Shown here: in pieces, positions 1,678 to 25,234 of the stretch | Position numbering within the stretch: the stretch's first letter is position 1 | Layout: every line of letters starts with the position of its first letter | Virus record (IMG/VR): IMGVR_UViG_3300045988_081205 | From: a virus | Reading direction: 5' to 3' (one strand) | DNA length: 64,000 bases | The notes under the pieces: generated by a model | What the model saw: only the letters and a program-made list of their open reading frames with translations | The model's database searches: none | Told to the model about the DNA's origin: nothing | Translations under genes and position numbers: made by a program

Positions 1678-1730
1678 AAATCTGCCCCAAGACCCTATAT
1701 ATGTAGGGAATAAATTGGGGCAGATTTTTT
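1678..1730. terminator. bidirectional intrinsic terminator
   Basis: 12-bp stem AAATCTGCCCCA (1678-1689) / TGGGGCAGATTT (1716-1727) with inner CCCTA/TAGGG stem and flanking A/T runs; lies between convergent genes. Confidence 0.7.
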
Positions 1731-2763
1731 ATTGTTTTTCACTAGCAACTAAATCCTTGAGCTTGTCGCTCTGCTTATTGCTCATATTGATGTCAACAAA
1801 TTCGCGCCGCTGTTTGCCTGTAATACAACTAAGCTGGCTAGTTTGAATAATCTTGGTACACGCCTCTTTATTGATTTTCTCAAAGCTGGGATAATGCTCA
1901 TAGACATCTAATAGCCGGTTAGCTATCCATTCCTTTGTTGCTGGCTTAATGATATAGACTTCTTTGATTTTAACATATTCGCCACTAAATGCCTCTTGAG
2001 TTAATTGAGCAAGCCGCGCCTCAAATGCCTTATATTGATCTGCTGACACGTATGGTTTATAGACCCTATTATCTATGACCTTGCCCCAATTTAGCGGCAT
2101 TATCTCATTGACGGCTTTTGAATAGATGGATAGGCAGGTTTGATGATCCGGGCTATCTTCTGGTACATCGTATGTTTCGAGCCATGTTTCTTTTGTTTCA
2201 AGGTTGCTCCGTTGCTTATAGAGCCGATAGCCTCTATTCAGATCAATGACATATCGGTTCTTCATGGTTAGCAATTTGCGCCTAGTCCATTGAGCAAGAA
2301 TATTATATACCACGCCATTAACCAAACTCATATAGCCATAATGCTCTGAATTTTCTACGGCTTGACTATATGTATAGCTGAAATTATCATTGACCTCTTG
2401 GAACATTCTGAGCAAATTGCTGGTTGACGCATATATGGTGGCGCAGTTGGTCTTTAGAAATATTTGATAAAGGGCGGCTTCAAATGCGGCTTGATATGAA
2501 TCTTTATCTAGTTCATTGATAAGGGCATCAGCTTCAGGATAGACCTCTTGGACAATATAGCGAGTTGGATGTTCTAGAGTATCTAGCTGACAGTAGTTAC
2601 GGATTTTATCTAGCTGAGAAATCTTAGTGTTGCCAGATTTGGTTGGGATGTCTAATGCGCGGCATAATTCTGGATATTTCAATTCGCGCCCCTCTATTTT
2701 GATAAGAGCATCAATTAACTTATTGTCTTCGTTTGATGGTAGATATTTTGGTTTGCTTGTCAT
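1729..2763 (-). CDS. hypothetical protein (344 aa), the only minus-strand gene in the early block
   Basis: ORF 1729..2811; ATG at 2763 preceded by AAGGAAG; no family recognised. Confidence 0.6.
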   Translation of the reverse strand: MTSKPKYLPSNEDNKLIDALIKIEGRELKYPELCRALDIPTKSGNTKISQLDKIRNYCQLDTLEHPTRYIVQEVYPEADALINELDKDSYQAAFEAALYQIFLKTNCATIYASTSNLLRMFQEVNDNFSYTYSQAVENSEHYGYMSLVNGVVYNILAQWTRRKLLTMKNRYVIDLNRGYRLYKQRSNLETKETWLETYDVPEDSPDHQTCLSIYSKAVNEIMPLNWGKVIDNRVYKPYVSADQYKAFEARLAQLTQEAFSGEYVKIKEVYIIKPATKEWIANRLLDVYEHYPSFEKINKEACTKIIQTSQLSCITGKQRREFVDINMSNKQSDKLKDLVASEKQ

Positions 2764-2779
2764 ATTTTCTTCCTTTCTA

Positions 2780-2865
2780 TTTTTGTACATTGATGTAAAA
2801 TTTTTGTACATTGCGTGACACTATAATAATACTAACGTATTATATTAGTATCATCGATTGTACAA
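2780..2865. repeat. TGTACA-containing operator-like repeats
   Basis: 13-mer TTTTTGTACATTG at 2780-2792 and 2801-2813 (21 nt apart) plus TTGTACAA at 2858-2865, just upstream of the minus-strand gene start. Confidence 0.4.
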
Positions 2866-3835
2866 CTTTTTTATCATCATCTAATTATACCATATTCTAA
2901 TCATCTATTTGTTAACAAATTGTAAATTATTACGATAGTGTATGGGGGAAATTTTTGATATTGATAAGAAAAAATAAAAATCCACCTCAATCCATTACAT
3001 GCTCTGTGATTTATTATTACTTGTGATAATATGTATCTGATTACAGGGTCTATGATTTGTTGTGCTAAATGCCATTTTCATCCATTTCTACCATTTTCAT
3101 CCATAACCATGCCCCCCGTCCTGGAAAATACTGCTAATAGTAAAAACACCTGGAAATAGCACTTTTCCACTGTATCAGGCTATTTATAGTCATTAAAATG
3201 ACCATACGGTCAGTTTACACATTGTAGACTAAAGTCGACTGATCGAAAAATCCAAACATCAACAGTCCAAAATTGGATATGTAGCACGCTACGTATTACA
3301 CATATCGCATTTTTTGGTAAACACCATTTACCTTTATATGCTAACCAATATAATGCATGATAACATCTAATGCGCAACACAAGATATCGTATTCAATGCT
3401 ATTATATCGATATCAAAATACTGTTACTTGTAACCATATTGTAACTATTTTAATCAATACACTATATAGCTATATATATATCAATATAATCTATTGATAA
3501 AAATATGCAATAGTCAATAATGAATATCTATTCAGTATATTCATATCATAACTATACAATAATCCATATAATTCTAGTATATTCTAACTTTTTGAGTGCA
3601 TATCATAGCTATTTAATATCAAAACAGTAAATATTGAAATTGTATAGAATATGAATAAATAAATACTTATCTTTGCCGTATGTTTTTACGTCTTGATCTA
3701 AAAGCCGCGTTATGGGGCTTCTAGCGCCTCTCAGCAGCATTGCCGTTGTCCAGCTATTATATACTATATATATAAGAATATCCATTTTGTCAATTTGCAT
3801 AAAATCAGACGCACTTTTTTGTGCAATATTCCGAC

Positions 3836-3863
3836 TTGCAATTTGGTAGTAAGCTGCTATAAT
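3836..3863 (+). promoter_or_regulatory. sigma70-type promoter
   Basis: TTGCAA, 16 nt, TGcTATAAT. Confidence 0.5.
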
Positions 3864-3889
3864 AATAAACGTAAGGAGGACGTAAACAA

Positions 3890-4024
3890 ATGGAAAATCA
3901 ATACACAATTAAAAAAGACCGTGAACATTATGTGATTTACAAAAATGGAAAATTTTTAGCAAGCGCGGACACAAAAACAGAAGCCGAAGAAATTATTGAG
4001 GAAGAAGAGGAGCGCGGGAAATAA
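3890..4024 (+). CDS. hypothetical 44-aa protein (MENQYTIKKDREHYVIYKNG...)
   Basis: Below ORF-track cutoff; ATG 3890 is 7 nt after AAGGAGG; stop overlaps hairpin GCGGGA/TCCCGC (4013-4030). Confidence 0.5.
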   Translation: MENQYTIKKDREHYVIYKNGKFLASADTKTEAEEIIEEEEERGK

Positions 4025-9932: not shown

Positions 9933-10126
9933 AAAGAGAAGAATTTTACCTTGTTCAATATACAAGGCGAATGGAATTAAGCTGTACTAATAACATAAAG
10001 TTAGATTCGGATGAGATTATGTTTATATCTGAAGAATCCGCGCGGAAATTTATTATGGATTTATATAATAGTGGCGATTTGTTATGGGCGCGATTATCAA
10101 TTTATGAGGATTATTATCCAGATTAA
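9929..10126 (+). CDS. hypothetical protein
   Basis: ORF track; ATGA coupling. Confidence 0.5.
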   Translation: MKREEFYLVQYTRRMELSCTNNIKLDSDEIMFISEESARKFIMDLYNSGDLLWARLSIYEDYYPD

Positions 10127-10137
10127 AAAAATAATTC

Positions 10138-10166
10138 TTGACAAATGACTAATTGTGTGATATAAT
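10138..10166 (+). promoter_or_regulatory. consensus promoter (family member)
   Basis: TTGACA, 17 nt, TGaTATAAT. Confidence 0.65.
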
Positions 10167-10197
10167 ATAATTACCAAATGAAAGGATGGTATATATT

Positions 10198-10392
10198 ATG
10201 GATAAGAAATTGGTCAAGTTTATAGAAAGTACATATGAGATGGCATTATTATGCAACAACAAAGTTGACGTAAGGTGCTATATGCATCAAAGTCTTGGAG
10301 CTTGTTGTTACGAATATGAGCGGTCTGGGGATCTGGATGCAATCAATATTTGGCGCGATGAATGGAGAGAAAAATTTGAAAAATTAGCTTGA
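10198..10392 (+). CDS. hypothetical protein
   Basis: ORF 10186..10392; ATG 10198 preferred because the first ATG abuts the conserved leader CAAATGAAAGGA. Confidence 0.5.
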   Translation: MDKKLVKFIESTYEMALLCNNKVDVRCYMHQSLGACCYEYERSGDLDAINIWRDEWREKFEKLA

Positions 10393-10417
10393 CAAATAGT
10401 ATCTCTTATAGTATAAT
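10389..10417 (+). promoter_or_regulatory. consensus promoter (family member)
   Basis: TTGACA, 17 nt, TATAAT; the -35 contains the upstream stop codon. Confidence 0.6.
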
Positions 10418-10518
10418 ACAGATGTGGTTGAGAGATTAGGTAATCTCAATTACAATTCTTCATTGTGAACCTCCTAGAATATAGTCCTGAGCATGACGAT
10501 AAAAGGCTCAAATAATAT

Positions 10519-10611
10519 GGCGGTGTCGGTTAATGGTAAGCCAGCTGGCCTATACCCAGTTTAGTCCTAGATTGGGGCAAAATCAGAGTTCGACCCTCTG
10601 CGCCGCTACCA
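10519..10611 (+). tRNA. class II-type tRNA or tRNA-like element, apparent anticodon UAU, encoded CCA
   Basis: Hand fold: acceptor GGCGGTG/CGCCGCT, D arm GGTT-AATGGTA-AGCC, anticodon arm GCTGG-CCTATAC-CCAGT, 23-nt variable region, T arm CAGAG-TTCGACC-CTCTG, ACCA end; C at position 33 is atypical. Confidence 0.5.
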
Positions 10612-10642
10612 TGATGAAATTCAAATTTAACGAGGTGATAAT

Positions 10643-10942
10643 ATGCGACTGTATTTTGATATTGATGACAACTGGTACGAAGGATATGATTCCTATGATT
10701 TTAAGCAAGACGTTAGAAATGGCATAGTGAAATCAATAACAAAAAATCTATTAACAGAAGGCAAATACAGCTTAACAGAAGAAGAAGCGCGTCAGATTGT
10801 TAAAGAAAACAAAGCTGAGATTATCGATAAGGTTGTACAGAAGGTGAGCGACGTAATTCTCAAGAAGCAAGAAATCAAATCGCTTGCGCCATCTTTTTCA
10901 GAGTTGAAAAAATGCAGATGCTCAAGTGGTAAAGTATTTTGA
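10643..10942 (+). CDS. hypothetical protein (possible +1 frame continuation to 10982)
   Basis: ORF track; GAGGTGA upstream; see frameshift finding. Confidence 0.55.
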   Translation: MRLYFDIDDNWYEGYDSYDFKQDVRNGIVKSITKNLLTEGKYSLTEEEARQIVKENKAEIIDKVVQKVSDVILKKQEIKSLAPSFSELKKCRCSSGKVF

Positions 10943-10983
10943 AGAAATGGTCGATAAGGCGATTGCCAAGAGGTTTAAGTAAT

Positions 10984-11223
10984 ATGGAAAAATCTCCACT
11001 AAAAGCCATAAGACAACATTGCTTGGAATGTTGCTGCGGCTCAGCTTATGAAGTAAAGAATTGTACTATCCATGATTGTAATCTGTATCCATTTCGTCTA
11101 GGCAACAACCCGTTTCGTACCCGTTCAATGACCGATGAACAGAAGCAAGCAGCGGCAGAACGGCTTAAATCGGCTCGTCTGGCAAAGAAATCATTGACTA
11201 ATAATGAAGAAAATTCAGATTAG
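10984..11223 (+). CDS. hypothetical Cys-rich protein (CLECCCGS...CTIHDCNLYPFR)
   Basis: ORF 10939..11223; internal ATG 10984 preferred. Confidence 0.55.
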   Translation: MEKSPLKAIRQHCLECCCGSAYEVKNCTIHDCNLYPFRLGNNPFRTRSMTDEQKQAAAERLKSARLAKKSLTNNEENSD

Positions 11224-11399
11224 TTGATTATGTAGGGTAAGTTTGTAGGGCTAGATGTTTAGGAGAATTTATTGATTATTAGTGTATGATTATTAACGAT
11301 TGGATTTGTTTACTTGCCGATACAGCTGTCCTCATATTCTCATTTGTATGCGGTGCAGCTTGGGCAATCAATTTATTGAAAAAATAATAAAAATAATGC

Positions 11400-11428
11400 T
11401 TGACAAATAAAATCAAGTATGGTATAAT
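11400..11428 (+). promoter_or_regulatory. consensus promoter driving the ORF-free region
   Basis: TTGACA, 17 nt, TGgTATAAT. Confidence 0.65.
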
Positions 11429-11921
11429 TGAGAATGCAAAGATGATGGTGCTGTATGAACGGATGTTCCATGCTACAGTGATTGCATATGAGTAGGCTAC
11501 AGCTAAGTGGAGTTTGATGAACAGCCATCATGATATAGGGAACGTGCGTGAGACAAATGAGATAAGCATGAATGGCGTAATTGCTGAGTAATGCTAAGTA
11601 GGGCGCACTAGTCAATCTGTTCGGCATAATGAAAGGGATTGGGATTGACAAATATAAAATGACATATCGGAAAGACGATGATAATATCCGACCGGATTTG
11701 AAGATAACCGTCAAATCTATATCACGCCCGCACTGGGGTCTGCGCAGAGTTTGAGAAGCGGCAGATACAGACTAGAGAATTGGGGTCGCGCCCAATCGTG
11801 CCACGTTAGCATCCATGCAAAAACATAACGGCAAAGGTGATATAAGGATATTATGTAAACATCATTCACGAGCCGATGCTAGAAATAGCTATGAGGTAGG
11901 AAGTCGGCTTGAGGTAAATAT

Positions 11922-11998
11922 GGCTCAGTACCCCAATCAGCAGAGGGAGCGGATTCAAAATCCGTAAAGTGTGGATTCGAATTCCACCTGAGCTACCA
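11922..11998 (+). tRNA. tRNA-like element, apparent anticodon CAA, encoded CCA
   Basis: Acceptor GGCTCAG/CTGAGCT, anticodon arm GCGGA-TTCAAAA-TCCGT, T arm GTGGA-TTCGAAT-TCCAC, ACCA end; D arm weak (3 bp, no GG in loop). Confidence 0.45.
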
Positions 11999-12459
11999 TT
12001 AAGTCCACTTGAAACGATATATAGTGGCTGGTTTATAGACTACTATTATGGAGATGAGAATGTGTCATAAGCACTCCATTATCAAATGCAAATCGAGCTG
12101 GTGAGAGGAAGTTAAACTGCTTAACAGCATAAAGGCATATGCAGTCAATCATGTCGATAACGAGAACCAGACGGATTAAGCAGAGATTGACCCCGTGGCA
12201 ACTAAGGGCTACTAATTAAAGTTGTAATCAATAAGCCGAGGCGAGGCATACAAAAACAGGGTGAGGTTCTAGAAGTCTTAGGACTAGGTTAGAGTGTAGG
12301 TTTATTGATTTGCTTCTAATGGGTTGATGCTTAAAGCCCATTTACAGTAGTTATGGTTTGTTGACCATTGTTTGAATTACTAGCCAATCGATGCCTAGGG
12401 TCGATAAAAACAAATCAATGGCGGTTCCGGTAGGTTGAGCCTAAAGCCTACTACCATAT

Positions 12460-12531
12460 GACCGTGTCAGTTAATTGGTAGGCTCTCTGTCCATAGCAGT
12501 TGAAATGTAGGTTCAAGTCCTGCCTCGGTCA
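12460..12531 (+). tRNA. tRNA-like element or degenerate tRNA (loop reads CAU), no CCA
   Basis: Acceptor GACCGTG/CTCGGTC (one mismatch), D arm AGTT-AATTGGTA-GGCT, T arm GTAGG-TTCAAGT-CCTGC; anticodon stem only 3 bp. Confidence 0.3.
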
Positions 12532-13141
12532 AAACGTCTATCATGCCTTTACTAGCATTGTAAGCACACTTGATAGCCGTCTGGTGGAAAAGCTGAAAAT
12601 CCTAGCTTTGTAAGGCCAAGGCCAAGAGTTGGTCACTTGCAAATGGTCTAGTTTATAGGTTGTAATGCTAGTTGCTAAATAGCTGATGGTTGACCACCTG
12701 ATACTATGAGGCAACGCTGCCACACTCTTGATTTTAAGATGGTTGCGCAACTGTAAATTCAATTTAACATGAATTTGTAGGGAGTGTGGCAATTCTAAAA
12801 ATCCTCGCAAAACACCGGTTAGAGGTTCTGATGGTATTGGTAAAACCATACAAAGAGATCGTGCAAGATGGCTTATAGTGCGGTGATGAAAGCTATTCCG
12901 CGCATTACTGAAAACGTCATTAAGTCCAAGGATAAATGACGTGTCGAGTTCGACGCAAAGAATTAGTTCAGCGATGTAGCGGCTGTAAAGCCACTAAACA
13001 ATATAGGGCTTGGGTAAGATGACCCTGTAAGTAGTTGATAGTGGAACAATAACCCTATATATCAAGTCAATATGCGCATGAACATTGCGACTTGTTTTAA
13101 TAAAATTTTATTAGAAACTGAAAGGAAATTAAAAGGAATTT

Positions 13142-13417
13142 ATGACCAAGAAGGAACTAATCAAGTTTGTAGCAGATAGTACAGAAAATACGGTCAAGGA
13201 CACAACTGAGATTGTAGACACATTCATTGATTATGTGCGGCATAGTCTAGTTCAGCATGAAGATGTTGTGATTCATGGCTTTGGCAAGTTCACAACCAAG
13301 TTGCGTGATGCTCGTACTGCTCGTAATCCACAGACCGGTGAAACCATTGAAGTTCCTGCTAAGTATGCTCTGACGTTTAAGCCGACAAGCACACTAAAGG
13401 CAGAAATCAATGAGTAA
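13142..13417 (+). CDS. HU/IHF-family DNA-binding protein
   Basis: Full-length match to the family pattern (FGKF..K.R.AR.ARNPQTGE.I.VPA) by recall. Confidence 0.85.
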   Translation: MTKKELIKFVADSTENTVKDTTEIVDTFIDYVRHSLVQHEDVVIHGFGKFTTKLRDARTARNPQTGETIEVPAKYALTFKPTSTLKAEINE

Positions 13418-13431
13418 ATAATCCTCCTGTT

Positions 13432-13470
13432 AAAATCCCTATGGTCGAAAGATTGTAGGGATTTTTCTAA
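13432..13470 (+). terminator. intrinsic terminator
   Basis: AAAATCCCTA / TAGGGATTTT stem (13432-13465) followed by T-rich tail. Confidence 0.6.
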
Positions 13471-13487
13471 AAGAAAGAGGTGATGAA

Positions 13488-13727
13488 ATGTTCTATACAA
13501 AAGGATTGCGCGGAGTCAAAATTTATTGTGGTGACGAGCTGATTGCTGAATCACCTGTACGTTATACTAATGAGTCTGTACCAATTAAAATTTCTCAAAA
13601 CGATATGAGCATAGATTTGAATATTACTACTAACTATGAGTTTGAGCAAGATGTCGAAAGTGGTAAGTGGTATCTATATGCTGATGGCATAAGAGTATGT
13701 GAGGTATTTCCTAAAACAGAAAAATAA
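13488..13727 (+). CDS. hypothetical protein
   Basis: ORF track; AGAGGTGA upstream. Confidence 0.55.
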   Translation: MFYTKGLRGVKIYCGDELIAESPVRYTNESVPIKISQNDMSIDLNITTNYEFEQDVESGKWYLYADGIRVCEVFPKTEK

Positions 13728-13730
13728 CTC

Positions 13731-13759
13731 TTGACAAATCGCCACTATGGTGCTATACT
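13731..13759 (+). promoter_or_regulatory. consensus promoter (family member)
   Basis: TTGACA, 17 nt, TGcTATACT. Confidence 0.65.
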
Positions 13760-13788
13760 TAAATCATCAAATGAAGGAGCTGAATATT

Positions 13789-14625
13789 ATGAATGAACTG
13801 TTTGTTATGAGTCTCAAAGCAAAGCACCGTAGTGAAGGTACTATTCGTGAATATACCAAGGCGATTGAGAATTGCTTGGAGCATATCAATAAGTCCGAAG
13901 CTGAAATCAAGCCGATTGACCTTGAACTGTGGCAGTCTAGCATGAGCAATCTTAGTTCTGCATCTGTTGCTCAGAGAACATCTGCGGTTCGTGAATATTT
14001 CAAATTCCTTTATCGCAACGAGTTCATTAACCGTAATCCAGCTGAGATGCTTGAAGCGCCGCAGATTAAGAATCGTGAGCAATCGGCTCTTAACGGCGAG
14101 CAGGTTAGAGCAATGGTCAATGCTGCAACCAATGAGCGCAACAAGGCGATTATCATGATGCTTGCTCAGACTGGCTTGCGTATTCATGAGCTTGCTAATA
14201 TCACGCTTGAGCAATATGAATCTCGTAGCAATAATATACTGGTTATTCGTGGTAAGGGTGATAAGGATAGATTGGTTGGCTTGGCTGATGAGACGATCAA
14301 GCTGATTGACAGTTATATTACCAATGAGCGCAAGGATGGTTGTGAATATCTGTTTGTAGGCAACAGAGGCAATAAAATGGATGGCAAGAATACTAGCGCC
14401 ATGCTCAAAGTATGTGCTAGAAAAGCTGGTATTGAGAATTGGGAAGAATTGCATATCAACAATCATACAATGCGCCGCACATTTGCTACTATGATGTCTG
14501 AGGCTGATGTGCCGATTGAGGTTATTAGTAAGGCAATGGGACATAGCGGAATCCAAATCACGTCCAGATATGTTAAGAGAACAGAACAACGTGCCGTAAA
14601 CGCAATGAGCGTTGTTAATTTTTAA
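13789..14625 (+). CDS. tyrosine recombinase (XerC/D-like integrase family)
   Basis: ATG 13789 after AAGGAG; core-binding-like N-terminus; catalytic-region motifs GLRIHEL, HTMRRTFAT, GHSGIQITSRY. Confidence 0.8.
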   Translation: MNELFVMSLKAKHRSEGTIREYTKAIENCLEHINKSEAEIKPIDLELWQSSMSNLSSASVAQRTSAVREYFKFLYRNEFINRNPAEMLEAPQIKNREQSALNGEQVRAMVNAATNERNKAIIMMLAQTGLRIHELANITLEQYESRSNNILVIRGKGDKDRLVGLADETIKLIDSYITNERKDGCEYLFVGNRGNKMDGKNTSAMLKVCARKAGIENWEELHINNHTMRRTFATMMSEADVPIEVISKAMGHSGIQITSRYVKRTEQRAVNAMSVVNF

Positions 14626-14642
14626 TTGAGGAGGACAAAGCA

Positions 14643-15209
14643 ATGATGTGGGACGATGTATTCAATAGTTTATACGAAGAAATTATGAAGGAAAGGACAA
14701 AGAAAGATATGAAGCTAGAATACAAATTCTACGAAAAGAATCTAGCACCTAAGTGGCTAGAGGGCGATTATGACCTGCATATTGAGGGCAATCGCATGAG
14801 GATGACGAGTAAGGATGGTAAGAAGGTCGAGGCTCGTTGCCATCCAGAGGATGATTGGCGGCTACAGATTGGCATTGATGAACTAAAAGAAAGAATGACT
14901 GAAGCAAAGAAGCCAAAAGAAATTAAGGTTGGGGATAGAGTTAAATTCGTATTTACTGATTTTTATAATCCAAATAAGCTCTGTGATTTCTTTGACACGG
15001 CTGAAGTTGCCACGTATGACATTATGAGAACCATGTCGACTGCTTTTTCTGGCGACGTCCCCAGTAAGGTATGGCGATATGAGGTACTGTATGTGGGTGA
15101 TCACCTTGACAGCTCTATCAATAAAAATGTACGAGTCGCCCTTGTAAGACATGAAACGACGGATACTGAGTTTGTTGTGCGGCTTGAAAAGTTGGAGTTA
15201 GTGTCATGA
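14643..15209 (+). CDS. hypothetical protein
   Basis: ORF track; GAGGAGGA upstream. Confidence 0.6.
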   Translation: MMWDDVFNSLYEEIMKERTKKDMKLEYKFYEKNLAPKWLEGDYDLHIEGNRMRMTSKDGKKVEARCHPEDDWRLQIGIDELKERMTEAKKPKEIKVGDRVKFVFTDFYNPNKLCDFFDTAEVATYDIMRTMSTAFSGDVPSKVWRYEVLYVGDHLDSSINKNVRVALVRHETTDTEFVVRLEKLELVS

Positions 15210-16236: not shown

Positions 16237-16553
16237 TGGAATGGATTGAAAAAATTGTATGGCATGAGGTTGTGACTAGACCGCCCACTGAGGAAGAACT
16301 TGAAGAATGGGCAGAATGGGGATTGGTAGAGTACGAATATCCTGCCTATATTTTTAATTGCGAATTACCCGATGAAGGTAAACATATTCTAGTTCTTACA
16401 ACAGGTGGGTTTGTGTACGCAGATACTTGCATGGTTGATGATATATGCAATGGCGATAATATGTATTATCTCGATAATCATGGTGATTGGGATGACGTGG
16501 TAGCATGGGCATATTTGCCAACTGGTAAAAAGGACGAGGAGGATATTAAGTGA
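16236..16553 (+). CDS. DUF551-like protein
   Basis: C-terminal VVAWAYLP motif shared with 27429..27656 and 31171..31404. Confidence 0.5.
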   Translation: MEWIEKIVWHEVVTRPPTEEELEEWAEWGLVEYEYPAYIFNCELPDEGKHILVLTTGGFVYADTCMVDDICNGDNMYYLDNHGDWDDVVAWAYLPTGKKDEEDIK

Positions 16554-17923
16554 CCTCAAAAGGAACGTCTAGGTCATATATCCATTTTTTATCGAACGCC
16601 GCCGTTGATGTGACCGGCTCTTGTCATCATGTGCGATTCAAAAAATATAGCATCCTCCTAGATTGTGGCATGATACAGGGCATGGGGGATATTGTATCTG
16701 ATTATAAGGCTAATTTTGCTCAACTAAAAAAGATTAAAGCAAGAGAAGTAGATTTTATTATATTAAATCATAGCCATCTCGACCATATTGGGCTTGTCCC
16801 TGCACTATATGCTAAAGGATGTAGTGCTCATCTCTATGTGCCATCTGGTTCTACTGATTTTCTTAAACTGCTATGGGAAGATAGCCTCAAAATCATGCGT
16901 GCTGATTGTCTAAAAATCCAAAATAAGCATGGACAGAAAGCCGCGCCATTCTATGATGAACAAGCCATTGAACGTGCGTTGAATAGAATTATTGAGGTTG
17001 ATTATAATACACCAATCCAGCTTGCGCTTGATATTAAGTTGACATATTATCCTGCTGGTCATATTATCAATTCAGCGCAATGTGTACTTGAACTAAAGAA
17101 TGGATATGTGACTAAGCGTATTGGATTTACTAGTGATATTGGCGGCACATCTGAAAGACCGTATAAGGCGTGTAGAAAGGCATTGTCATTCGTTGATGTT
17201 CTTATCTCTGAATGCACATATTGTCAACAGGGGCGACCCAATAGTCCCAAGGATAGAGACAAAGATATTGAGAAAATCAAGACGGTCATTTCTGAATCCA
17301 ATAAAATCTTAATTCCATGTTTTTCTCTTGACCGTACGCAATCTATGTTGCGTTTATTACATGATGAGGGTATTGATAAGCAGATTAAAATTTATCTCGA
17401 CTCGCCTCTTGCATCTAAATTCTGTGCAATCTGGCCGTGGGAAGAAAACGAGCTTGAGAATGTGCGAATTGTTGAATCTCAAGAAGAATCAGTTAATCTA
17501 CAAATGCGAAATGAGCATTGTTTAATCATCAGCGCATCGGGATTCCTTGTAGGCGGCAGGATTATGAGCCATCTTAAAACGGCCCTGCCTGATATTCGCA
17601 ATCATATCTTATTTTGTGGTTTCGCTGGTGAGAATGGGCTTGCGTCTCAAATCAAATCAAATATGCCCGAAGTCAATATTGATGGAGCGAATGTGGTAAA
17701 CAAAGCTAATATCACAGAACTGCGCTCATTTAGTAGCCATGCTAGTTATGAAGAATTGATTGATTACTTGACAAATCAATGCCGTTTCAATAAGCTATGT
17801 CTAGTACATGGTAACTATGAGAATAAAGTAGAATTTTCCAATACTCTACAAGATGAGCTAATCAAACAAGGTAAATCAAGTAGAGTTGTATGTACTCAGC
17901 AGGATCAGAGGATATTCATATGA
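16550..17923 (+). CDS. metallo-beta-lactamase fold beta-CASP nuclease
   Basis: HSHLDHIG (HxHxDH) motif; C-terminal SSHASYEEL resembles beta-CASP motifs B/C; GTG start overlapping upstream TGA. Confidence 0.7.
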   Translation: MTSKGTSRSYIHFLSNAAVDVTGSCHHVRFKKYSILLDCGMIQGMGDIVSDYKANFAQLKKIKAREVDFIILNHSHLDHIGLVPALYAKGCSAHLYVPSGSTDFLKLLWEDSLKIMRADCLKIQNKHGQKAAPFYDEQAIERALNRIIEVDYNTPIQLALDIKLTYYPAGHIINSAQCVLELKNGYVTKRIGFTSDIGGTSERPYKACRKALSFVDVLISECTYCQQGRPNSPKDRDKDIEKIKTVISESNKILIPCFSLDRTQSMLRLLHDEGIDKQIKIYLDSPLASKFCAIWPWEENELENVRIVESQEESVNLQMRNEHCLIISASGFLVGGRIMSHLKTALPDIRNHILFCGFAGENGLASQIKSNMPEVNIDGANVVNKANITELRSFSSHASYEELIDYLTNQCRFNKLCLVHGNYENKVEFSNTLQDELIKQGKSSRVVCTQQDQRIFI

Positions 17924-18846: not shown

Positions 18847-19107
18847 ATGCCTTGGAAATATCGACCACATAGGGGTACACTTGAAGAATCAATGAAAGAA
18901 TGTCGCGAATTTGATTCATTAGAAGATGTGTTTGAATACGTTGCAAGAGACTGGGGTATTCGGAAGTTCGACCTAAGCATTAAATATGTATGTGACGACA
19001 ATCGTATTGGATGGCGTCCGACGTATTATGTTTGTACTGATACATTTGATGGTAAAACATATAATGAAATACCACAATGTATTGGGATGTGTACGGAAGT
19101 AGAATAA
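18847..19107 (+). CDS. hypothetical protein
   Basis: ORF track; AAGGAGGA upstream. Confidence 0.6.
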   Translation: MPWKYRPHRGTLEESMKECREFDSLEDVFEYVARDWGIRKFDLSIKYVCDDNRIGWRPTYYVCTDTFDGKTYNEIPQCIGMCTEVE

Positions 19108-19109
19108 AT

Positions 19110-22100
19110 ATGAATGAACCAATTTGGGTAAATTACCATAAGCATACATCTCTAAGTAATAGATATATGAAAGATAGCCCGCTCTTGCCAATAGATTATT
19201 GGAATGAGCTAAAAGCACGATATGGTGATAAACCGTGTATCTATACTACGGTAGAGCATGGATGGGCTGGTAATTATTTCAAACAATATGATGACCTTGA
19301 AAAATTTAATAAGAAGAACGGCACGAATATCAGATGGATATATGGAGCTGAAGCATATTGGGTAAAAGACAGACATGAATCTGATAGAAGCAACTGCCAT
19401 ATTGTGCTATTGGCACGAACCGATAAAGGGCGCAAAGCAATCAATAAAATTTTATCTATTGCAAACAAGGATGGATATTATGCGCGTCCTCGTATCGACC
19501 TTGAATTGATTGACCAGTTACCATATGATGATGTGATGATTACAACAGCTTGTGTTGCTTTCTGGAATAAATATGATGACATTGCCAACATTGTTAGGCA
19601 TATAGCCGAGTCATTTCCTCATTTTTATCTTGAGGTACAGGCGCACGACACACCAGAGCAAAAAGAACTAAATTGGCGCATTATCCAAATTAGCGAAGAA
19701 TTAAATGTGCCAATTATCGCTGGTTGCGATAGTCATGTTATCACTGAATCACAAATGCTTGATAGAGATGAATTGCTCAAATCAGGTAACATCCATTATG
19801 AGGATGAAGATGGATGGTATATGGACTATCCAACATATGATGTACTATTTGAGCGATTTAAGCAACAGGGCGTATTAACAGATGCACAGATTAAAACCGC
19901 TATCAATAATACTAATGTATTGTTTGAATTTGAGGACATAAAGCTCGACCGCTCCTTGAAAGTGCCTGTCATTAAAGAGCTGCGTAATAAGACACAAGAA
20001 GAACGCAATCATATATTTGAACAGATTCTGAAAGATGAATGGTTCTTGCAAAAAGCTGATATTAACAAGGATAAACTGCAACAGTATTATCAAGAAATCA
20101 AGCATGATATAGGTGAGATAGAGGCTTGTAATATGGCTGATTATTTCATCTTGTCATATATGGTAATGAAGCGAGGACAAGAGAAATATGGCGGCATCTT
20201 AACTCCATCAGGGCGTGGCTCTGCTGTATCTATGTATCTCAATAAGCTCTTGAGACTTACTAAGGTAGATAAGGTCAATAGCCCTGTCCTTATGTATTCA
20301 GAGCGATTCTTGACTAAAGAGCGCGTCTTAGATAGTCATACGCCGCCTGATATTGATAACAACGTCAGTGACCGTCAACCATTCATTCAAGCACAGCGCG
20401 ACCTTGTAGGTGAACTTGGCACATATGATCTATTGGCTCTTGGTACGCTAAAATTCAAAGCCGCATGGAAAATGTATGCAAGAGCATATAATGTCGAGCC
20501 TGATACAGCCAATGAAGTAAGCAAGCAGATTGACCGATATGAAACAGCCAAGAAACACGCTGAAGATGGTGAAACGGTTGATATTCATAAGTATATTGAG
20601 CCGAAATATCAAGAGCTGGTAGATGGATGTAAAAAATATCTAGGCATTTATGATACTGCAAAGGGGCATCCCTGCGGTTGCTTGTGCTATGAGGGTGACA
20701 TTGAATCTGACATCGGCATCAGCTTGTGTAAATCCGAAGCAACTGGTAAAGAGGTGCTTGTCGCTAATATTGAATCGGGCATGATTGATGCTTTTGGATA
20801 TCTCAAGCAAGATTATCTTATTGTTGATTCAATCGGCCTGACATATGATATTTATAAAGAGGCTGGAATCGAGCCATTCACTGTCAACCAGCTTCTTGAA
20901 AAAATCGCACATGATGATGCAACATGGCAGATTTATGCAGATGGTTATACACAATGCGTCAATCAGTGTGAACAGCCAAAGTCAACTCAAAAAGTAATGC
21001 GATATAAGCCAAAGAATATTGCTGAGTTGACCCAGTTCATAGCTGCAATCAGGCCGTCATTCCAATCTATGTATCAGACATTTGAGCAACGGCAACATTT
21101 TGATTATGGCATCAAGGCTCTTGACGATTTGCTCCAAGATGAATACTGCTCATCATCATTCATTCTATATCAAGAATCTCTAATGAAAGTCCTTGGCTTT
21201 GCTGGCTTCCCTATGTCTGAGACATATACTATCATCAAGGCAATCAGTAAGAAAAAGGATTATATTATCAAGGATGCAAAGCCAAAATTTATCAAGAATT
21301 TTGCTCAAGCCATTCTTGATACGGGCGAAACAGATGATGATAATAAAGCGCATGAGCTTGCTGATAAAGTATGGACGATTATTGAGAATAGCGCCGCATA
21401 TGGCTTTAATAGTGCCCATGCTTATTGTATGGCTATTGATAGTGTAACGATTGCTTATCTCAAAGCGCATTATCCACTTGAATTTTATAAGTGCGTGCTC
21501 CAGCGATTCACTGATAAGGGCGAAAAAGACAAGGTTGCACTCATTAAGCAGGAGATGCTAAAACGCGGCTATAAGCTCAAAGATATTCAATTTGGAGATG
21601 ATAATAGAGCATTCAATATAGACCGTTCTAACAACTGTATTGTGCAAACTATGGCATCTATTAAGGATATGCCTAAGAGCGCACCAGAGGCACTATATGT
21701 GCTTGGAAAATCTGATATAAAGAACCGCGCCGCTCTATATCAAGCTCTTATGGACGATCCTAGAATCAATAAGAAAGCCATTGAAATTTTATTCCATCTT
21801 GGATATTTTAACAAATTTGCTCAACCAAATCGGCTCATTGCTGAATATGAAATTTATCAAAAATATATTTCAGCAAAGGTATTGACAAAATCATCATTTG
21901 ATGATATAATGATAGATGTAATTAGACCGTGTTGTGGTAAAGAAACCGAGAAGCAATTTAGAGAGATTGACAATAAAGCATTGATAACAGCTTTAATTAA
22001 ACAAGCAAATATCAAACCAGCTACTATTGTTGACCGTATTAAATGGCAACTTGAGTATCTAGGATATTGTACAGTAAATGACCCAAATTCAGACCCCAAC

Positions 22101-22355
22101 GATTGGCTGGTGCTAGATGTAAAGACAACAGGATATGGTGCAGTTTATGTAAAAATTTACAATTTATGTTTTGGCGTCGAAAGAACATATAAAGTAAACC
22201 GACAGTATTATAGTAAGAATTCAATAAATGTTGGAGATTGTATTAAAGCCGTAATTCAAGAAAAGGACAAATATAAAAAAAATGAAGATGGCGAATGGAT
22301 AAAAACAGGAGAAAAAGAAAATATTATAAAATGTTGGAAAATACTTGACAAGTAA
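19110..22355 (+). CDS. dnaE: DnaE-type replicative DNA polymerase (Pol III alpha-like, PHP domain)
   Basis: N-terminal PHP motif NYHKHTSLSN; PDIDNNV catalytic motif; 1081 aa from ATG 19110. Confidence 0.85.
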   Translation: MNEPIWVNYHKHTSLSNRYMKDSPLLPIDYWNELKARYGDKPCIYTTVEHGWAGNYFKQYDDLEKFNKKNGTNIRWIYGAEAYWVKDRHESDRSNCHIVLLARTDKGRKAINKILSIANKDGYYARPRIDLELIDQLPYDDVMITTACVAFWNKYDDIANIVRHIAESFPHFYLEVQAHDTPEQKELNWRIIQISEELNVPIIAGCDSHVITESQMLDRDELLKSGNIHYEDEDGWYMDYPTYDVLFERFKQQGVLTDAQIKTAINNTNVLFEFEDIKLDRSLKVPVIKELRNKTQEERNHIFEQILKDEWFLQKADINKDKLQQYYQEIKHDIGEIEACNMADYFILSYMVMKRGQEKYGGILTPSGRGSAVSMYLNKLLRLTKVDKVNSPVLMYSERFLTKERVLDSHTPPDIDNNVSDRQPFIQAQRDLVGELGTYDLLALGTLKFKAAWKMYARAYNVEPDTANEVSKQIDRYETAKKHAEDGETVDIHKYIEPKYQELVDGCKKYLGIYDTAKGHPCGCLCYEGDIESDIGISLCKSEATGKEVLVANIESGMIDAFGYLKQDYLIVDSIGLTYDIYKEAGIEPFTVNQLLEKIAHDDATWQIYADGYTQCVNQCEQPKSTQKVMRYKPKNIAELTQFIAAIRPSFQSMYQTFEQRQHFDYGIKALDDLLQDEYCSSSFILYQESLMKVLGFAGFPMSETYTIIKAISKKKDYIIKDAKPKFIKNFAQAILDTGETDDDNKAHELADKVWTIIENSAAYGFNSAHAYCMAIDSVTIAYLKAHYPLEFYKCVLQRFTDKGEKDKVALIKQEMLKRGYKLKDIQFGDDNRAFNIDRSNNCIVQTMASIKDMPKSAPEALYVLGKSDIKNRAALYQALMDDPRINKKAIEILFHLGYFNKFAQPNRLIAEYEIYQKYISAKVLTKSSFDDIMIDVIRPCCGKETEKQFREIDNKALITALIKQANIKPATIVDRIKWQLEYLGYCTVNDPNSDPNDWLVLDVKTTGYGAVYVKIYNLCFGVERTYKVNRQYYSKNSINVGDCIKAVIQEKDKYKKNEDGEWIKTGEKENIIKCWKILDK

Positions 22356-22476: not shown

Positions 22477-23151
22477 ATGGAAGAAAAAGAAATCTGGAAA
22501 GATGTAGTTGGGTATGAAGGTTATTATCAAGTAAGTAATTTAGGACAAGTAAAATCGTTGGACAGGTATGTTAAATACAAGAGAACTGGATTGCGGTTGA
22601 TAAAAGGTAAAATTTTATCACAGAAAACAGATAGAAATGGATATAAATGTGTATTGATATGTATAGATAACAAAAGGTGGTATGTGACAGTGCATAGACT
22701 TGTGGCATTGATGTTTGTACCAAATCCAGATAATAAGCCACAAGTTGGACATAAAGATGAAACTAAAACAAATAATCGAGCAGATAATCTCGAATGGGTA
22801 ACTCCAAAAGAAAATAGTAATATGCCAAAACATATAGAAAGATTGTCTGTTGTGTTATCTGGTGAAAATAATCCAATGTATGGAAATTACGGAAAGTTAA
22901 GTTCTAGATGGAAAGCTGTTGTAACTGAAGAAACACGTGCAAAAATGTCTAAGAAATCAAAAGGAAGATTTACAAGAGCAACCCATCCAGCTTCTAAAAA
23001 AGTTATGTGTGATGGAATTGTTTATGATACTATTCTGGATTGTGCAGAGCATTATGGAATGAATCGTAATACATTTAGTAATTATTTGAACGGAAGAGTA
23101 AAAATGCCAGATAAATGGAAAAATCTAGGGCTTTCTTTTTATAAGAAATAA
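22477..23151 (+). mobile_element. free-standing HNH homing endonuclease (NUMOD4 + HNH_3 type)
   Basis: EIWKDVVGYEGYYQVSNLGQVKS (NUMOD4-like); HRLVALMFVPNP...GHKDETKTNNRADNLEWVTPKEN (HNH_3-like). Confidence 0.8.
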
Positions 23152-25226: not shown

Positions 25227-25234
25227 ATTTTATT

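What the first reader, a model, noticed from the sequence alone, without database searches (positions are those of the whole stretch)
11400..13110. Promoter-driven 1.7 kb ORF-free, hairpin-dense region with three tRNA-like modules
A consensus promoter (11400) opens a stretch with no plus-strand ORF of 60 aa or more before the HU gene (13142). It contains tRNA-like cloverleaves at 11922-11998 and 12460-12531. Each has a canonical T arm and acceptor but one defective arm.

There are many complementary segments, several of them long-range:
- ATGATGG (11442) with CCATCAT (11525)
- ATTGGG (11779) with CCCAAT (11791)
- GCCACACTC (12719) with GAGTGTGGC (12782), enclosing two inner hairpins
- ATATAGGG (13001) with CCCTATAT (13053)

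It also contains ACAGACUAGAG (11767-11777) and GAAGUCGG (11900-11907), which resemble group I intron R/S (P7) elements.

Large ornate RNAs such as GOLLD and ROOL are known to occur in phages next to tRNAs, so this may be a member of such a class or something new. An alternative is a decayed tRNA array and/or an attP region for the nearby recombinase.
Basis: partly seen in the sequence, partly recalled or inferred. Interest (0 to 1): 0.8.

Follow-up and report, generated by a model that had tools for sequence, protein, structure and literature searches.

The report
Phage tRNA and small-RNA cassette operon
This gene-free 1.9 kb stretch of a human-gut phage is not one giant RNA but a promoter-driven string of interchangeable RNA cassettes: one tRNA, one degenerate tRNA and several conserved folded small RNAs, one of which is a well-supported new RNA family that sits beside tRNA genes in unrelated phages.

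Summary
The sequence facts hold. A perfect TTGACA-17-TATAAT promoter lies at 11400, there is no + ORF of 60 aa or more up to HU, there are two tRNA-type elements, and every complementary pair sits at the stated coordinates. The large-RNA interpretation does not hold. No GOLLD, ROOL or group I match appears even at E<=10.

In about 60 related gut-phage contigs the same intergenic space runs from 232 to 2310 nt. It is a mosaic of at least 53 modules kept in a fixed order but independently present or absent. Two slots hold swappable tRNA cassettes (Leu, Val, Ile, Met, Thr). One relative carries an HNH homing endonuclease there, and another carries the Rfam family RAGATH-33.

Module B1 (11681-11862) is a real + strand structured RNA with seven helices. 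In the MAFFT alignment 11 of 37 pairs show compensatory change, against 4.9 in shuffles; with distant homologues the count is 22 of 37. Its loops are invariant. It recurs beside tRNAs in two contigs with no detectable similarity outside it.

The best reading is a T4-like polycistronic tRNA plus stable-RNA precursor, cut up by tRNA-processing enzymes. The function of the small RNAs is unknown.

The parts
11400..11428 (+). Sigma-70/SigA-type promoter, TTGACA-17-TATAAT with an extended -10 TG and an A-rich upstream tract. The inferred transcription start is near 11435.
   Evidence: One search gives 12 of 12 matches. One search shows it is one of 11 perfect copies, all on the + strand. The promoter module is kept in most relatives that have the array.
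11436..11532 (+). Module J: a 5'-terminal domain closed by the stem AUGAUGGUGCUG / CAGC..CAGCCAUCAU.
   Evidence: The closing stem never varies, while about 42 nt of the interior is replaced in L007, L017 and L021. A J-like leader also precedes the B1-like RNA in the unrelated contig L113 (by eye). The MFE z-score is -0.01, so the support is comparative only.
11533..11651 (+). Module A: a highly conserved RNA of about 119 nt with a variable apical hairpin.
   Evidence: It is present in 18 of 27 relatives. Across 31 unique sequences there are long invariant tracts and no compensatory pairs. However, the apical hairpin is replaced by 4-5 different self-complementary inserts. Three invariant G.U pairs point to the + strand.
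11681..11862 (+). Module B1: a structured RNA with 7 helices. P1 is 11681-11689 with 11846-11854. The P2 hairpin has the invariant loop AGAUAACCG. The P5 loop is the invariant AGAGUUUGAGA. This is a new family, not in Rfam.
   Evidence: 99.7% of cells are paired, and 11 pairs show change on both sides against 4.9+-1.4 in shuffles (0 of 500 shuffles reach it). Slid controls give 1-3. With distant homologues 22 of 37 pairs are compensated. Abundant G.U pairs point to the + strand. Homologues beside tRNAs occur in L108 and L113.
11863..11921 (+). Module B2: the leader of tRNA slot 1. It forms a hairpin at 11869-11911 with an inner GCUA-GAAA-UAGC GNRA hairpin and a conserved 14-nt internal loop. 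It ends ...AUAU just before tRNA position +1.
   Evidence: Among 41 unique sequences, 3 pairs are compensated. The z-score is -2.63. It directly precedes every slot-1 cassette.
11922..11998 (+). tRNA cassette in slot 1: a 77-nt tRNA with anticodon CAA (Leu by anticodon), a short variable loop, an encoded CCA, and a D-loop without GG.
   Evidence: 54.4 bits. The fold z-score is -4.0. In relatives the same slot holds Leu-CAA of 84/85 nt, Leu-UAA, Val-UAC or Ile-UAU.
11999..12310 (+). Module H: a 312-nt variable spacer of unknown nature.
   Evidence: It is present in only 5 of 27 relatives. It has no ORF of 40 aa or more on the + strand and no Rfam hit. There is too little diversity to test for structure.
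12311..12346 (+). S36: a 36-nt hairpin element (AAUGGGUU...AGCCCAUU).
   Evidence: It is conserved in 14 loci. In L015, L016, L018 and L021 it lies 2-3 nt upstream of tRNA-Met.
12347..12459 (+). Module E: the leader of tRNA slot 2, made of three hairpins and ending CAUAU before the tRNA.
   Evidence: It is followed by the CAU tRNA-like element here, by tRNA-Thr in L005 and by tRNA-Ile in L006. The z-score is -1.9.
12460..12531 (+). A degenerate or non-canonical tRNA(CAU) in slot 2. It has C33 instead of U33, a 3-bp anticodon stem (U28.U42), a U6.U67 mismatch and no encoded CCA.
   Evidence: Rfam gives 30.2 bits against a gathering score of 29, and ARAGORN is silent. It is 78-82% identical to the tRNA-Met(CAU) that ARAGORN calls in L015, L018 and L021.
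12532..12586 (+). f2: the trailer of slot 2.
   Evidence: It travels together with the CAU cassette in relatives.
12587..12717 (+). Module C: a structured RNA of about 131 nt. Two 5' hairpins have lineage-specific compensated stems, and there is a long 3' hairpin. A UGGUCA/UGACCA loop-loop pairing is possible.
   Evidence: It is present in 20 of 27 relatives. On 38 unique sequences 96.4% of cells are paired against 91.4%, and the covariation score is reached by 0 of 500 shuffles. The count of compensated pairs is not significant (7 against 6.9). The loop-loop pairing is 99.6% paired but shows only wobble changes.
12718..12805 (+). Module G: a long hairpin, GCCACACUC (12719) with GAGUGUGGC (12782), enclosing inner hairpins.
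   Evidence: The z-score is -3.76. It is conserved in 11 of 27 relatives with no compensatory change and three broken cells.
12806..12995 (+). Modules K (12806-12869) and I (12870-12995): variable spacers. Module I folds well and contains a T-arm-like hairpin, GUGUCGAGUUCGACGC.
   Evidence: K is in 1 of 27 relatives and I is in 5-8 of 27. The z-score is -3.08 for I and +0.25 for K. Neither is a tRNA by the covariance model.
12996..13062 (+). Module D1: a hairpin, AUAUAGGG (13001) with CCCUAUAU (13053), with a variable inner hairpin.
   Evidence: There is one compensatory A-U to G-C change, in L018.
13063..13103 (+). A weak terminator-like hairpin, CAAGUC...GACUUG followed by UUUU, just upstream of the HU ribosome-binding site.
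   Evidence: It is invariant in all 27 relatives, including those with the 232-nt minimal spacer. It was not called by the terminator scan because it is GC-poor.
13142..13417 (+). HU gene (context): the first ORF downstream, probably co-transcribed.
   Evidence: Pfam Bac_DNA_binding, 3.1e-30.
10519..10611 (+). Upstream tRNA-Ile(UAU) (context, outside the finding). It is 93 nt, with an insert of about 20 nt in the variable region and C33.

Best explanation
The 1.9 kb between the stop at 11223 and the HU start is an early, host-RNA-polymerase-driven non-coding operon of an uncultured ~90 kb human-gut phage that is probably Firmicutes-infecting. One strong promoter (11400) would give a polycistronic precursor in which locally folded RNA domains sit like beads on a string. 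The order is J, A, B1, B2 leader, tRNA(CAA), H, S36, E leader, a degraded tRNA(CAU), C, G, K/I and D.

Inferred mechanism: host RNase P and RNase Z-type enzymes cut at the tRNA ends ('tRNA punctuation'). This would release the tRNA, which would supply decoding of a codon the phage uses often. It would also free the flanking structured modules as discrete small RNAs. This is the arrangement known from the phage T4 tRNA region.

At the DNA level the locus is a recombination hot spot. Cassettes are exchanged precisely at the tRNA boundaries, and modules are gained and lost, at least in part through homing endonucleases.

B1 is an autonomous RNA gene rather than a cis leader. It occurs before or after tRNAs in three phage lineages whose sampled sequence shares no similarity outside B1.

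Shown: the promoter consensus, the absence of ORFs, the tRNAs, the mosaic presence and absence of modules, covariation in B1 (weaker in C, B2 and D1), and the linkage of B1 to tRNAs.

Inferred: co-transcription, processing, stability, and any trans-acting role of the small RNAs.
For: - The promoter is perfect and one of 11 copies. No intrinsic terminator is predicted inside the region on the + strand.
- The region is ORF-free, and the minus-strand ORFs have no family.
- tRNAs are found at 11922 and 12460.
- The spacer is 232-2310 nt in relatives.
- The closest relatives have flanks 99-100% identical, yet carry a 134-nt tRNA-Val/Ile cassette in place of window 11922-12586.
- The pan-library holds 53 modules in a conserved order, and no two genomes examined have the same arrangement.
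- Slot 1 holds four unrelated tRNA bodies between identical flanks...ATAT| and |AAGTCCAC. Slot 2 holds Met, Thr or Ile.
- An HNH_3+NUMOD1 ORF sits inside the array in L022. Two more HNH genes lie in this window.
- B1 covariation is strong. A B1' paralogue and the homologues in L108 and L113 keep the loops and compensate the stems.
- L108 reads promoter, tRNA-Ile, tRNA-Met, tRNA-Leu, B1, then a terminator-like hairpin. L113 reads perfect promoter, leader, B1, tRNA-Leu.
- RAGATH-33 (139.9 bits) occupies the same array in L007.
- The T4 precedent is a ~1.75 kb primary transcript giving 8 tRNAs, species I and II RNAs and segB (PMC2330249).
- The phage uses the AUA, GUA, ACA, UUG and UUA codons read by the cassette tRNAs.
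Against: - There is no expression or processing data of any kind.
- Thermodynamic stability of most modules is not above shuffled controls.
- Modules A, G and J show conservation but no compensatory pairs. H and K are poorly conserved and may be plain spacer.
- The region is dispensable: L012-L014 lack it. Any function is therefore accessory.
- The second tRNA may be dead.
- Much of B1's covariation comes from a few lineages, and alignment A13 was fitted to the model.
Confidence: 0.7

Rival explanations
1. The region is one large ornate RNA (GOLLD/ROOL-like, or a new giant class). The whole 1.7 kb would fold and act as a single molecule with embedded tRNA-like domains.
For: There is a single promoter and no internal terminator. 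Module order is conserved. GOLLD and ROOL are known to lie beside tRNAs in phages (PMC5737381).
Against: No GOLLD, ROOL or other large-RNA hit appears at E<=10. Modules are independently present or absent. Relatives with 99-100% identical flanks lack 665 nt, and some lack everything. Every supported helix is local to one module. B1 occurs on its own beside tRNAs in unrelated phages. Whole-block MFE z-scores are weak.
Confidence: 0.05
2. The region is a decaying tRNA array plus neutral spacer. Only the tRNA(CAA) matters, and the rest is recombination debris without function.
For: The second tRNA is degraded: C33, a weak anticodon stem, and a score right at threshold. H and K are rare and unconserved. 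The region is dispensable. Most modules are no more stable than shuffles.
Against: B1 has 7 helices kept by compensatory change and invariant loops across several lineages. A, B2 and C are found in 18-23 of 27 relatives with long invariant tracts. A curated RNA family, RAGATH-33, occupies the same array.
Confidence: 0.12
3. The region is a long structured 5' leader that regulates HU. The promoter at 11400 would exist to express HU, and the folded modules would tune its translation or stability.
For: HU is the first ORF downstream, and no strong terminator or strong HU promoter lies between. tRNA-mRNA co-transcription is known, for example the E. coli tRNA-tufB operon (own knowledge).
Against: HU keeps the same 80-nt upstream segment whether the array is 232 or 2310 nt long. 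In L108 the B1 homologue is followed by a terminator-like hairpin and a convergent gene, not by HU. tRNA excision would sever the leader from HU.
Confidence: 0.08
4. The region is the attP site for the tyrosine recombinase at 13747-14625. The tRNA-like pieces would be copies of host tRNA ends used for integration.
For: A Phage_integrase-family gene lies 0.6 kb downstream of the region's 3' end, about 1.2 kb from the tRNA-like element. Temperate phages often integrate into tRNA genes (own knowledge).
Against: The tRNAs are full-length cassettes of differing identity in the same slot. About 60 contigs cluster at 80-100 kb with no host flanks. The B1 pattern found no prophage copy in 185,579 species genomes; the single hit was chance.
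Confidence: 0.03
5. The region is a group I (or II) intron or a remnant of one.
For: ACAGACUAGAG resembles the group I R element, and the GAGCCGA...GAAA hairpin vaguely resembles group II domain V (by eye). An HNH endonuclease is present in a relative.
Against: No Intron_gpI or gpII hit appears at E<=10. The R-like string is not conserved between B1 subtypes, and it has no downstream partner. No split gene or split tRNA flanks the region.
Confidence: 0.01

Closest known systems
Phage T4 tRNA gene region (8 tRNAs, species I and II stable RNAs, and the segB homing endonuclease, on a ~1.75 kb primary transcript; PMC2330249)
   Same: One promoter drives a non-coding transcript of about 1.7 kb. tRNAs are interleaved with non-tRNA small RNAs of unknown function. 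A homing endonuclease gene sits inside the cluster in some genomes. Content varies between close relatives.
   Different: The host clade differs. There are far fewer tRNAs (1-3). There are far more non-tRNA modules, which dominate the length, and they have no sequence relation to T4 species I/II. The combinatorial variability is much higher. Processing has not been shown here.
GOLLD (RF01998) and ROOL (RF03087) large RNAs
   Same: They are phage-borne, lie next to tRNAs, may be co-transcribed with them, and have unknown function.
   Different: There is no match to either model. Those are single large RNAs with a conserved global architecture, whereas this is a set of separable 60-180-nt domains.
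RAGATH-33 RNA (RF03102), a curated structured RNA of unknown function
   Same: It occupies the same array, between modules J and A, in relatives L007 and L017 at 139.9 bits. It is the same kind of element: a conserved small structured RNA from gut metagenomes.
   Different: It is absent from this window. B1, A and C match no Rfam model.
tRNA punctuation (mitochondrial polycistronic transcripts) and bacterial tRNA-mRNA operons such as thrU-tufB (own knowledge)
   Same: tRNAs embedded in a long transcript would serve as the cutting signals that liberate their neighbours.
   Different: This is an inferred analogy only. No cleavage data exist for this phage.

Membership tests
tRNA (RF00005): element 11922-11998 | The covariance-model score exceeds the gathering score, and ARAGORN calls it. 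| tested here: met
   54.4 bits against 29. ARAGORN calls tRNA-Leu(CAA), 77 nt.
tRNA (RF00005): element 11922-11998 | A canonical cloverleaf: 7-bp acceptor, 5-bp anticodon stem with U33, a T arm with UUCGAAU, and G18G19 in the D-loop. | tested here: inconclusive
   The acceptor, anticodon arm, T arm and encoded CCA are canonical. The D-loop (AAUCAGCAGA) lacks GG, and the first D-stem pair is C.A (alignment). It is a Leu anticodon on a short-variable-arm body.
tRNA (RF00005): element 12460-12531 | The covariance-model score exceeds the gathering score, and ARAGORN calls it. | tested here: inconclusive
   30.2 bits against 29. ARAGORN does not call it.
tRNA (RF00005): element 12460-12531 | U33 and a 5-bp anticodon stem. 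| tested here: not met
   It has C33, a U28.U42 mismatch leaving a 3-bp stem, and U6.U67 in the acceptor. Homologous copies in L015, L018 and L021 have U33 and are called tRNA-Met.
GOLLD (RF01998) / ROOL (RF03087) | A match to the family covariance model. | tested here: not met
   No hit at E<=10 in 10000-13600 on either strand, and none at the gathering score in the whole window.
Group I intron (RF00028) | A match to the covariance model, and a conserved P7 formed by R and S elements. | tested here: not met
   No hit. The R-like string varies between B1 subtypes, and GAAGUCGG pairs locally within B2.
RAGATH-33 (RF03102) | A match to the covariance model above 120.4 bits. | tested here: not met
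   Absent from the window. Present at L007:3770-3882 at 139.9 bits in the homologous array.
T4-type phage tRNA plus stable-RNA operon | A single upstream promoter with no internal terminator. | tested here: met
   (consensus scans only).
T4-type phage tRNA plus stable-RNA operon | tRNA genes interleaved with conserved non-tRNA RNA genes. | tested here: met
   tRNAs are shown. B1 is a covariation-supported RNA. C, B2 and D1 have weaker support.
T4-type phage tRNA plus stable-RNA operon | A homing endonuclease gene within the cluster, and cluster content that differs between relatives. | tested here: met
   HNH_3+NUMOD1 at L022:4055-4612. It is not in this window's array. The mosaicism is shown.
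T4-type phage tRNA plus stable-RNA operon | The precursor is processed by RNase P and other enzymes into stable small RNAs. | not testable with these tools
   This needs RNA-seq, northern blots or in vitro RNase P assays.
attP of a tRNA-integrating temperate phage | Integrated copies in bacterial genomes, with the junction in the tRNA-like segment. | tested here: not met
   The exact B1 pattern gave only one hit in genome contigs, and it was chance. All related contigs look like free phage genomes. Identity to a host tRNA could not be tested because the host is unknown.

The most novel reading that the evidence does not exclude
The locus would be a phage 'RNA cassette battery': an integron-like, recombination-shuffled collection of 50 or more interchangeable structured-RNA and tRNA or tRNA-like cassettes. 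It would be fired from one early promoter, and its members (B1, A, C, RAGATH-33) would act in trans as decoys or inhibitors of host factors. The tRNA-likes with altered anticodon loops (C33, 3-bp stems, one body carrying a UAC, UAU or UGU anticodon) would belong to the same battery. One plausible target is tRNA-targeting defence nucleases. B1 would then be a new, functionally sophisticated RNA class, either protein-binding or catalytic, dedicated to phage tRNA operons.
Probability: 0.2. Interest if true: 0.8.

Novelty: new variant of a known kind. Interest (0 to 1): 0.52.

Why it matters
This turns a vague 'ornate RNA?' flag into a defined object. The object is a hypervariable early non-coding operon in an abundant human-gut phage family, with a parts list.

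It also yields a new seven-helix RNA family (B1) with invariant loops. B1 is linked to tRNA genes in three phage lineages with no similarity outside it in the sampled regions. That linkage, together with the T4 species I/II precedent whose function has been unknown for decades, suggests that small RNAs riding on tRNA operons are a recurrent phage strategy.

The cassette variability, the precise swapping at tRNA boundaries and the odd anticodon loops make the locus a candidate arena for a phage-host arms race. That idea is testable once a host is found.

Tried and rejected
- **Rfam on the window.** Both the gathering-score scan and the permissive E<=10 scan gave only tRNAs, plus a meaningless Xist_exon1 hit.
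- **Annotated phage records.** A distant blastn of the region found only a tRNA-Leu in a Rhodococcus phage. Megablast of 24 kb of the window against them found nothing.
- **Genome-contig scan for B1.** It returned one cyanobacterial hit, which is chance on inspection.
- **Minus-strand ORFs.** 11373-11714 and 12541-12849, plus the small + ORFs, have no PHROG hit, and module loss in relatives disrupts them.
- **Origin of replication.** Rejected because the region is dispensable and the helices use G.U pairs valid only on the + strand RNA.
- **Self-cleaving ribozymes.** Hammerhead, twister, pistol, hatchet and HDV were all rejected: no Rfam hit and no core motifs.
- **Group II domain V resemblance of B2.** Rejected: there is a 14-nt internal loop instead of a 2-nt bulge, and no covariance-model hit.
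- **UGGUCA/UGACCA kissing loop in module C.** Consistent with the data but without compensatory change, so left open.
- **Degenerate B1 pattern scans.** Thirty-three new candidate loci came from two such scans. Only L108 and L113 are real by the covariance model.
- **Cross-lineage alignment of J.** It failed to align, so the J-like leader in L113 rests on reading by eye.
- **Literature.** The supplements of the two large structured-RNA surveys and the RAGATH paper were not available. Whether B1, A or C already carry a name outside Rfam therefore could not be checked.
Full report
**1. What the window is**

The surrounding genes are those of a large tailed phage.
- Nearby are HU (13142-13417), a tyrosine recombinase (13747-14625), a beta-CASP/RMMBL metallo-beta-lactamase (16550-17923) and a DnaE-type polymerase (19077-22355).
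- Further along are DnaB, primase, RecJ, Dam, RecD2, RNR, ThyX-like and dUTPase genes, plus two HNH/NUMOD4 homing endonucleases.
- No annotated phage is close at the DNA level. The DnaE is at best 39% identical to a human-faecal phage and about 36% to Geobacillus and Bacillus phages.
- Related contigs of about 80-100 kb come from IMG/VR and human-gut assemblies.
- I infer a Firmicutes-type host from the SigA-consensus promoters, the strong Shine-Dalgarno sites and a SleB-like hydrolase. This is an inference, not a result.

**2. Checking the observation**

The promoter at 11400-11428 matches the consensus at 12 of 12 positions and has a TG extension. It belongs to a set of 11 perfect TTGACA-N17-TATAAT sites, all on the + strand between 8.2 and 37.5 kb. 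That number is far above chance.

No + ORF of 60 aa or more lies between 11224 and 13141. Rfam and ARAGORN confirm a tRNA at 11922-11998 (54.4 bits). Rfam alone gives a borderline tRNA at 12460-12531 (30.2 bits against a gathering score of 29). A third tRNA-like module was not found inside the range.

'Hairpin-dense' is only weakly true in energy terms. The z-scores are -0.72, -1.24 and -2.19 for the three non-tRNA blocks. Individually only B2, G and I are unusual.

**3. No known large RNA**

A permissive cmscan (E<=10, both strands, 10000-13600) returned only three tRNAs and a noise hit. GOLLD, ROOL, group I and II introns, tmRNA, the ribozymes, riboswitches and T-box are therefore not present as recognisable members.

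**4. The comparative picture changes the interpretation**

I compared 27 loci sharing the recombinase at 88-100% identity. The space between the upstream gene and HU is 232 to 2310 nt long.

BLAST shows sharp presence/absence blocks. An iterative module library gave 53 modules. They keep a common order: promoter, J, A, B1, B2, tRNA slot 1, H/N15, S36, (N13), E, tRNA slot 2, f2, C, G/N2..., I, D. However, they are independently present or absent.

- No genome examined has the same combination as the window.
- The nearest relatives (L001-L004) have flanks 99-100% identical. They carry a 134-nt block with a 74-nt tRNA-Val/Ile in place of window 11922-12586.
- L012-L014 lack the array altogether.

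This pattern is incompatible with a single co-folding 1.7 kb RNA. It is also incompatible with an essential cis element such as an origin.

**5. tRNA slots**

Slot 1 begins exactly at 11922 and is always preceded by ...ATAT. It holds four unrelated tRNA bodies in different genomes: a 77-nt CAA form, 84- and 85-nt class-II Leu-CAA or Leu-UAA forms, and a 74-nt Val-UAC/Ile-UAU form. These sit between the same flanks.

Slot 2 follows S36 or module E. It holds tRNA-Met(CAU), Thr(UGU) or Ile(UAU). The window's slot-2 element is a 78-82% identical copy of the Met cassette. It carries C33, a U.U mismatch in the anticodon stem and a mismatch in the acceptor. It is most simply a decaying or non-canonical copy.

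The decoded codons (UUG, UUA, AUA, GUA, ACA) are all well used by the phage. AUA, for example, makes up 23% of Ile codons. This fits codon supply, but the host's usage is unknown.

One relative has an HNH_3+NUMOD1 homing endonuclease ORF directly after its slot-1 tRNA. That gives a plausible motor for the shuffling.

**6. The non-tRNA modules are not junk**

B1 (11681-11862) is the clearest case. I aligned 41 distinct sequences from viral and metagenome scans with MAFFT.
- They fit one structure with seven helices, and 99.7% of cells are paired.
- Eleven pairs changed on both sides, against 4.9+-1.4 in shuffles (0 of 500 shuffles reach this).
- Slid controls gave 1-3 such pairs. The 18-sequence set gave 12 against 2.8.
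- Independent compensations occur in P6 (G-C to A-U in L092 and L076) and in P7 (U-A to G-C in L079, with the half-step U.C in L080).
- Frequent G.U and U.G pairs (for example 14-17 sequences at three positions) are valid only on the + strand.

A covariance model found three more distant relatives:
- a shorter paralogue B1' in L018 and L022 (67 bits), whose P2 stem is fully compensated while the loop AGAUNACCG is kept;
- L108:8334-8539 (95.7 bits);
- L113:11289-11109 (41.5 bits).

With these added, 22 of 37 pairs are compensated and every helix is supported. The caveat is that this alignment was fitted to the model.

The invariant unpaired tracts are AGAUAACCG, AGAGUUKGAGA, GAUA, UAGA and UAUAAGG. 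They suggest tertiary contacts or a bound partner.

Support for the other modules is weaker:
- **C (12587-12717):** two hairpins have lineage-specific compensated stems. There is a possible UGGUCA/UGACCA loop-loop contact that shows only wobble changes. The statistics are moderate.
- **B2 (11863-11921):** a conserved leader hairpin with an inner GNRA hairpin and three compensated pairs.
- **D1:** one compensated pair.
- **A:** no compensated pairs, but long invariant tracts, and an apical hairpin replaced by several different self-complementary inserts.
- **J:** an invariant closing stem around a swappable interior.
- **G:** a stable hairpin (z = -3.76) that does not vary.
- **H and K:** rare and untestable.

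**7. Context from other phages and from Rfam**

L108 shares no detectable protein or DNA similarity with the window apart from B1. Its layout is TTGACA-17-TACAAT promoter, tRNA-Ile(UAU), tRNA-Met(CAU), tRNA-Leu(CAA), B1 directly abutting the CCA end, a terminator-like hairpin, and then a convergent gene.

L113 reads as follows: a perfect promoter, a J-like leader, B1, then tRNA-Leu(UAA) overlapping the B1 3' end.

B1 is therefore an autonomous RNA gene that keeps company with tRNAs, on either side of them. This argues against a purely cis leader role. It argues for release by tRNA-processing enzymes.

Separately, in relatives L007 and L017 the module between J and A is the curated Rfam family RAGATH-33 (139.9 bits, gathering score 120.4). 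So this array has already yielded one recognised structured RNA of unknown function. None of the window's own modules is in Rfam.

**8. Mechanism**

The closest documented system is the T4 tRNA region. There a ~1.75 kb primary transcript from one promoter is the precursor of eight tRNAs and the species I and II RNAs. It also carries the homing endonuclease gene segB, and its content differs between T4 relatives (PMC2330249).

I therefore read 11400-13110 as an early polycistronic tRNA plus small-RNA precursor.

- Shown: promoter consensus, non-coding nature, tRNAs, modular mosaicism, RNA structure of B1 (and partly C, B2 and D1), and B1-tRNA linkage.
- Inferred: co-transcription, cleavage at tRNA ends, stability, and a trans-acting role of the small RNAs.

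What B1 does is unknown. My best guess is a protein-binding or otherwise host-directed small RNA made immediately on infection. A counter-defence role is possible but untested. It is suggested by the extreme cassette turnover and by the unusual anticodon loops: C33 here and in the upstream tRNA-Ile, and a 74-nt body carrying UAC, UAU or UGU with a 3-bp stem.

**9. Rivals**

- A single giant RNA is very unlikely (section 4).
- 'Decayed tRNA array plus junk' explains the second tRNA and perhaps H and K. It does not explain B1, A, B2 or C.
- 'HU leader' is possible as a side effect of read-through. However, the HU-proximal 80 nt are the same with or without the array.
- attP has no support: the tRNA cassettes are full-length and of varying identity, there are no host junctions, and the one genome-collection scan (a B1 pattern) found no integrated copy.
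- Group I or II intron is rejected.

**10. Verdict**

The headline interpretation (a GOLLD/ROOL-like giant RNA, group I elements) is not supported.

What is there is a new variant of a known kind of locus, the phage tRNA plus stable-RNA operon. It is unusually rich in separable structured RNAs and unusually mosaic. It contains at least one well-supported new RNA family. Interest is moderate: real and publishable as an RNA family and locus description, but without functional data.

Noticed in passing
window 10519-10611: The tRNA-Ile(UAU) is 93 nt long. It has an insert of about 20 nt in the variable region, like a class-II arm, and C32-C33 instead of U33. Fourteen of 27 relatives share this anticodon loop. 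Others have a 76-nt form with U33.
   Followed up: partly
window 8227, 9371, 10138, 10389, 11400, 18132, 21882, 22345, 25098, 30678, 37540 (+ strand): Eleven perfect TTGACA-N17-TATAAT promoters lie on the + strand and none on the minus strand. Most have a TG extension, and those inspected upstream (10138, 10389, 11400) have an A-rich tract. This looks like a dense early/middle promoter family.
   Followed up: partly
window 16550-17923: This gene encodes a beta-CASP + RMMBL metallo-beta-lactamase protein (RNase J/CPSF-like fold). Two variants only about 52% identical occur among relatives. It could be an RNA-processing enzyme relevant to the RNA operon, or a DNA nuclease.
   Followed up: no
window 22477-23151 and 25166-25798; L022:4055-4612: Two free-standing HNH_3/NUMOD4 homing endonuclease genes sit in the replication module of this phage. 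A different HNH_3/NUMOD1 gene is inserted inside the RNA array of relative L022.
   Followed up: partly
L007:3770-3882 (also L017): The Rfam family RAGATH-33 (RF03102) matches at 139.9 bits, nearly identical to the family consensus. It lies inside the homologous RNA array between modules J and A. It is absent from this window.
   Followed up: partly
L108:7840-8600 and L113:11400-11045 (minus strand): These are compact tRNA operons with a B1-type RNA in two gut-phage contigs with no detectable similarity to the window outside B1. L108 reads promoter, Ile, Met, Leu, B1, terminator-like hairpin. L113 reads perfect promoter, J-like leader, B1, tRNA-Leu(UAA).
   Followed up: partly
L001:5033-5106, L002:5031-5104, L005:5058-5131, L006:5085-5158: A 74-nt tRNA-like cassette has the same body but anticodon UAC, UAU or UGU in different phages. 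It has only a 3-bp anticodon stem and a pyrimidine at position 37. This is either anticodon switching or drift in a non-decoding tRNA-like RNA.
   Followed up: partly
window 13759-14643 (minus strand): A 294-aa ORF lies antisense to the recombinase gene and is almost co-extensive with it. It is most likely a spurious mirror ORF.
   Followed up: no
L012:5480-5660: In relatives lacking the array, the 232-nt spacer holds a short ORF with a strong ribosome-binding site. The ORF starts MKVVVGNRGSGVTTS (P-loop-like) and runs across the conserved CAAGTC...GACTTG hairpin into the HU start. It may be a gene remnant.
   Followed up: no
window 3001-4000: This is the most AT-rich kilobase of the window (GC 0.31), with a local reversal of GC skew. 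It lies next to a divergently oriented gene (1729-2811, minus strand). It is a possible origin or genome-end region.
   Followed up: no
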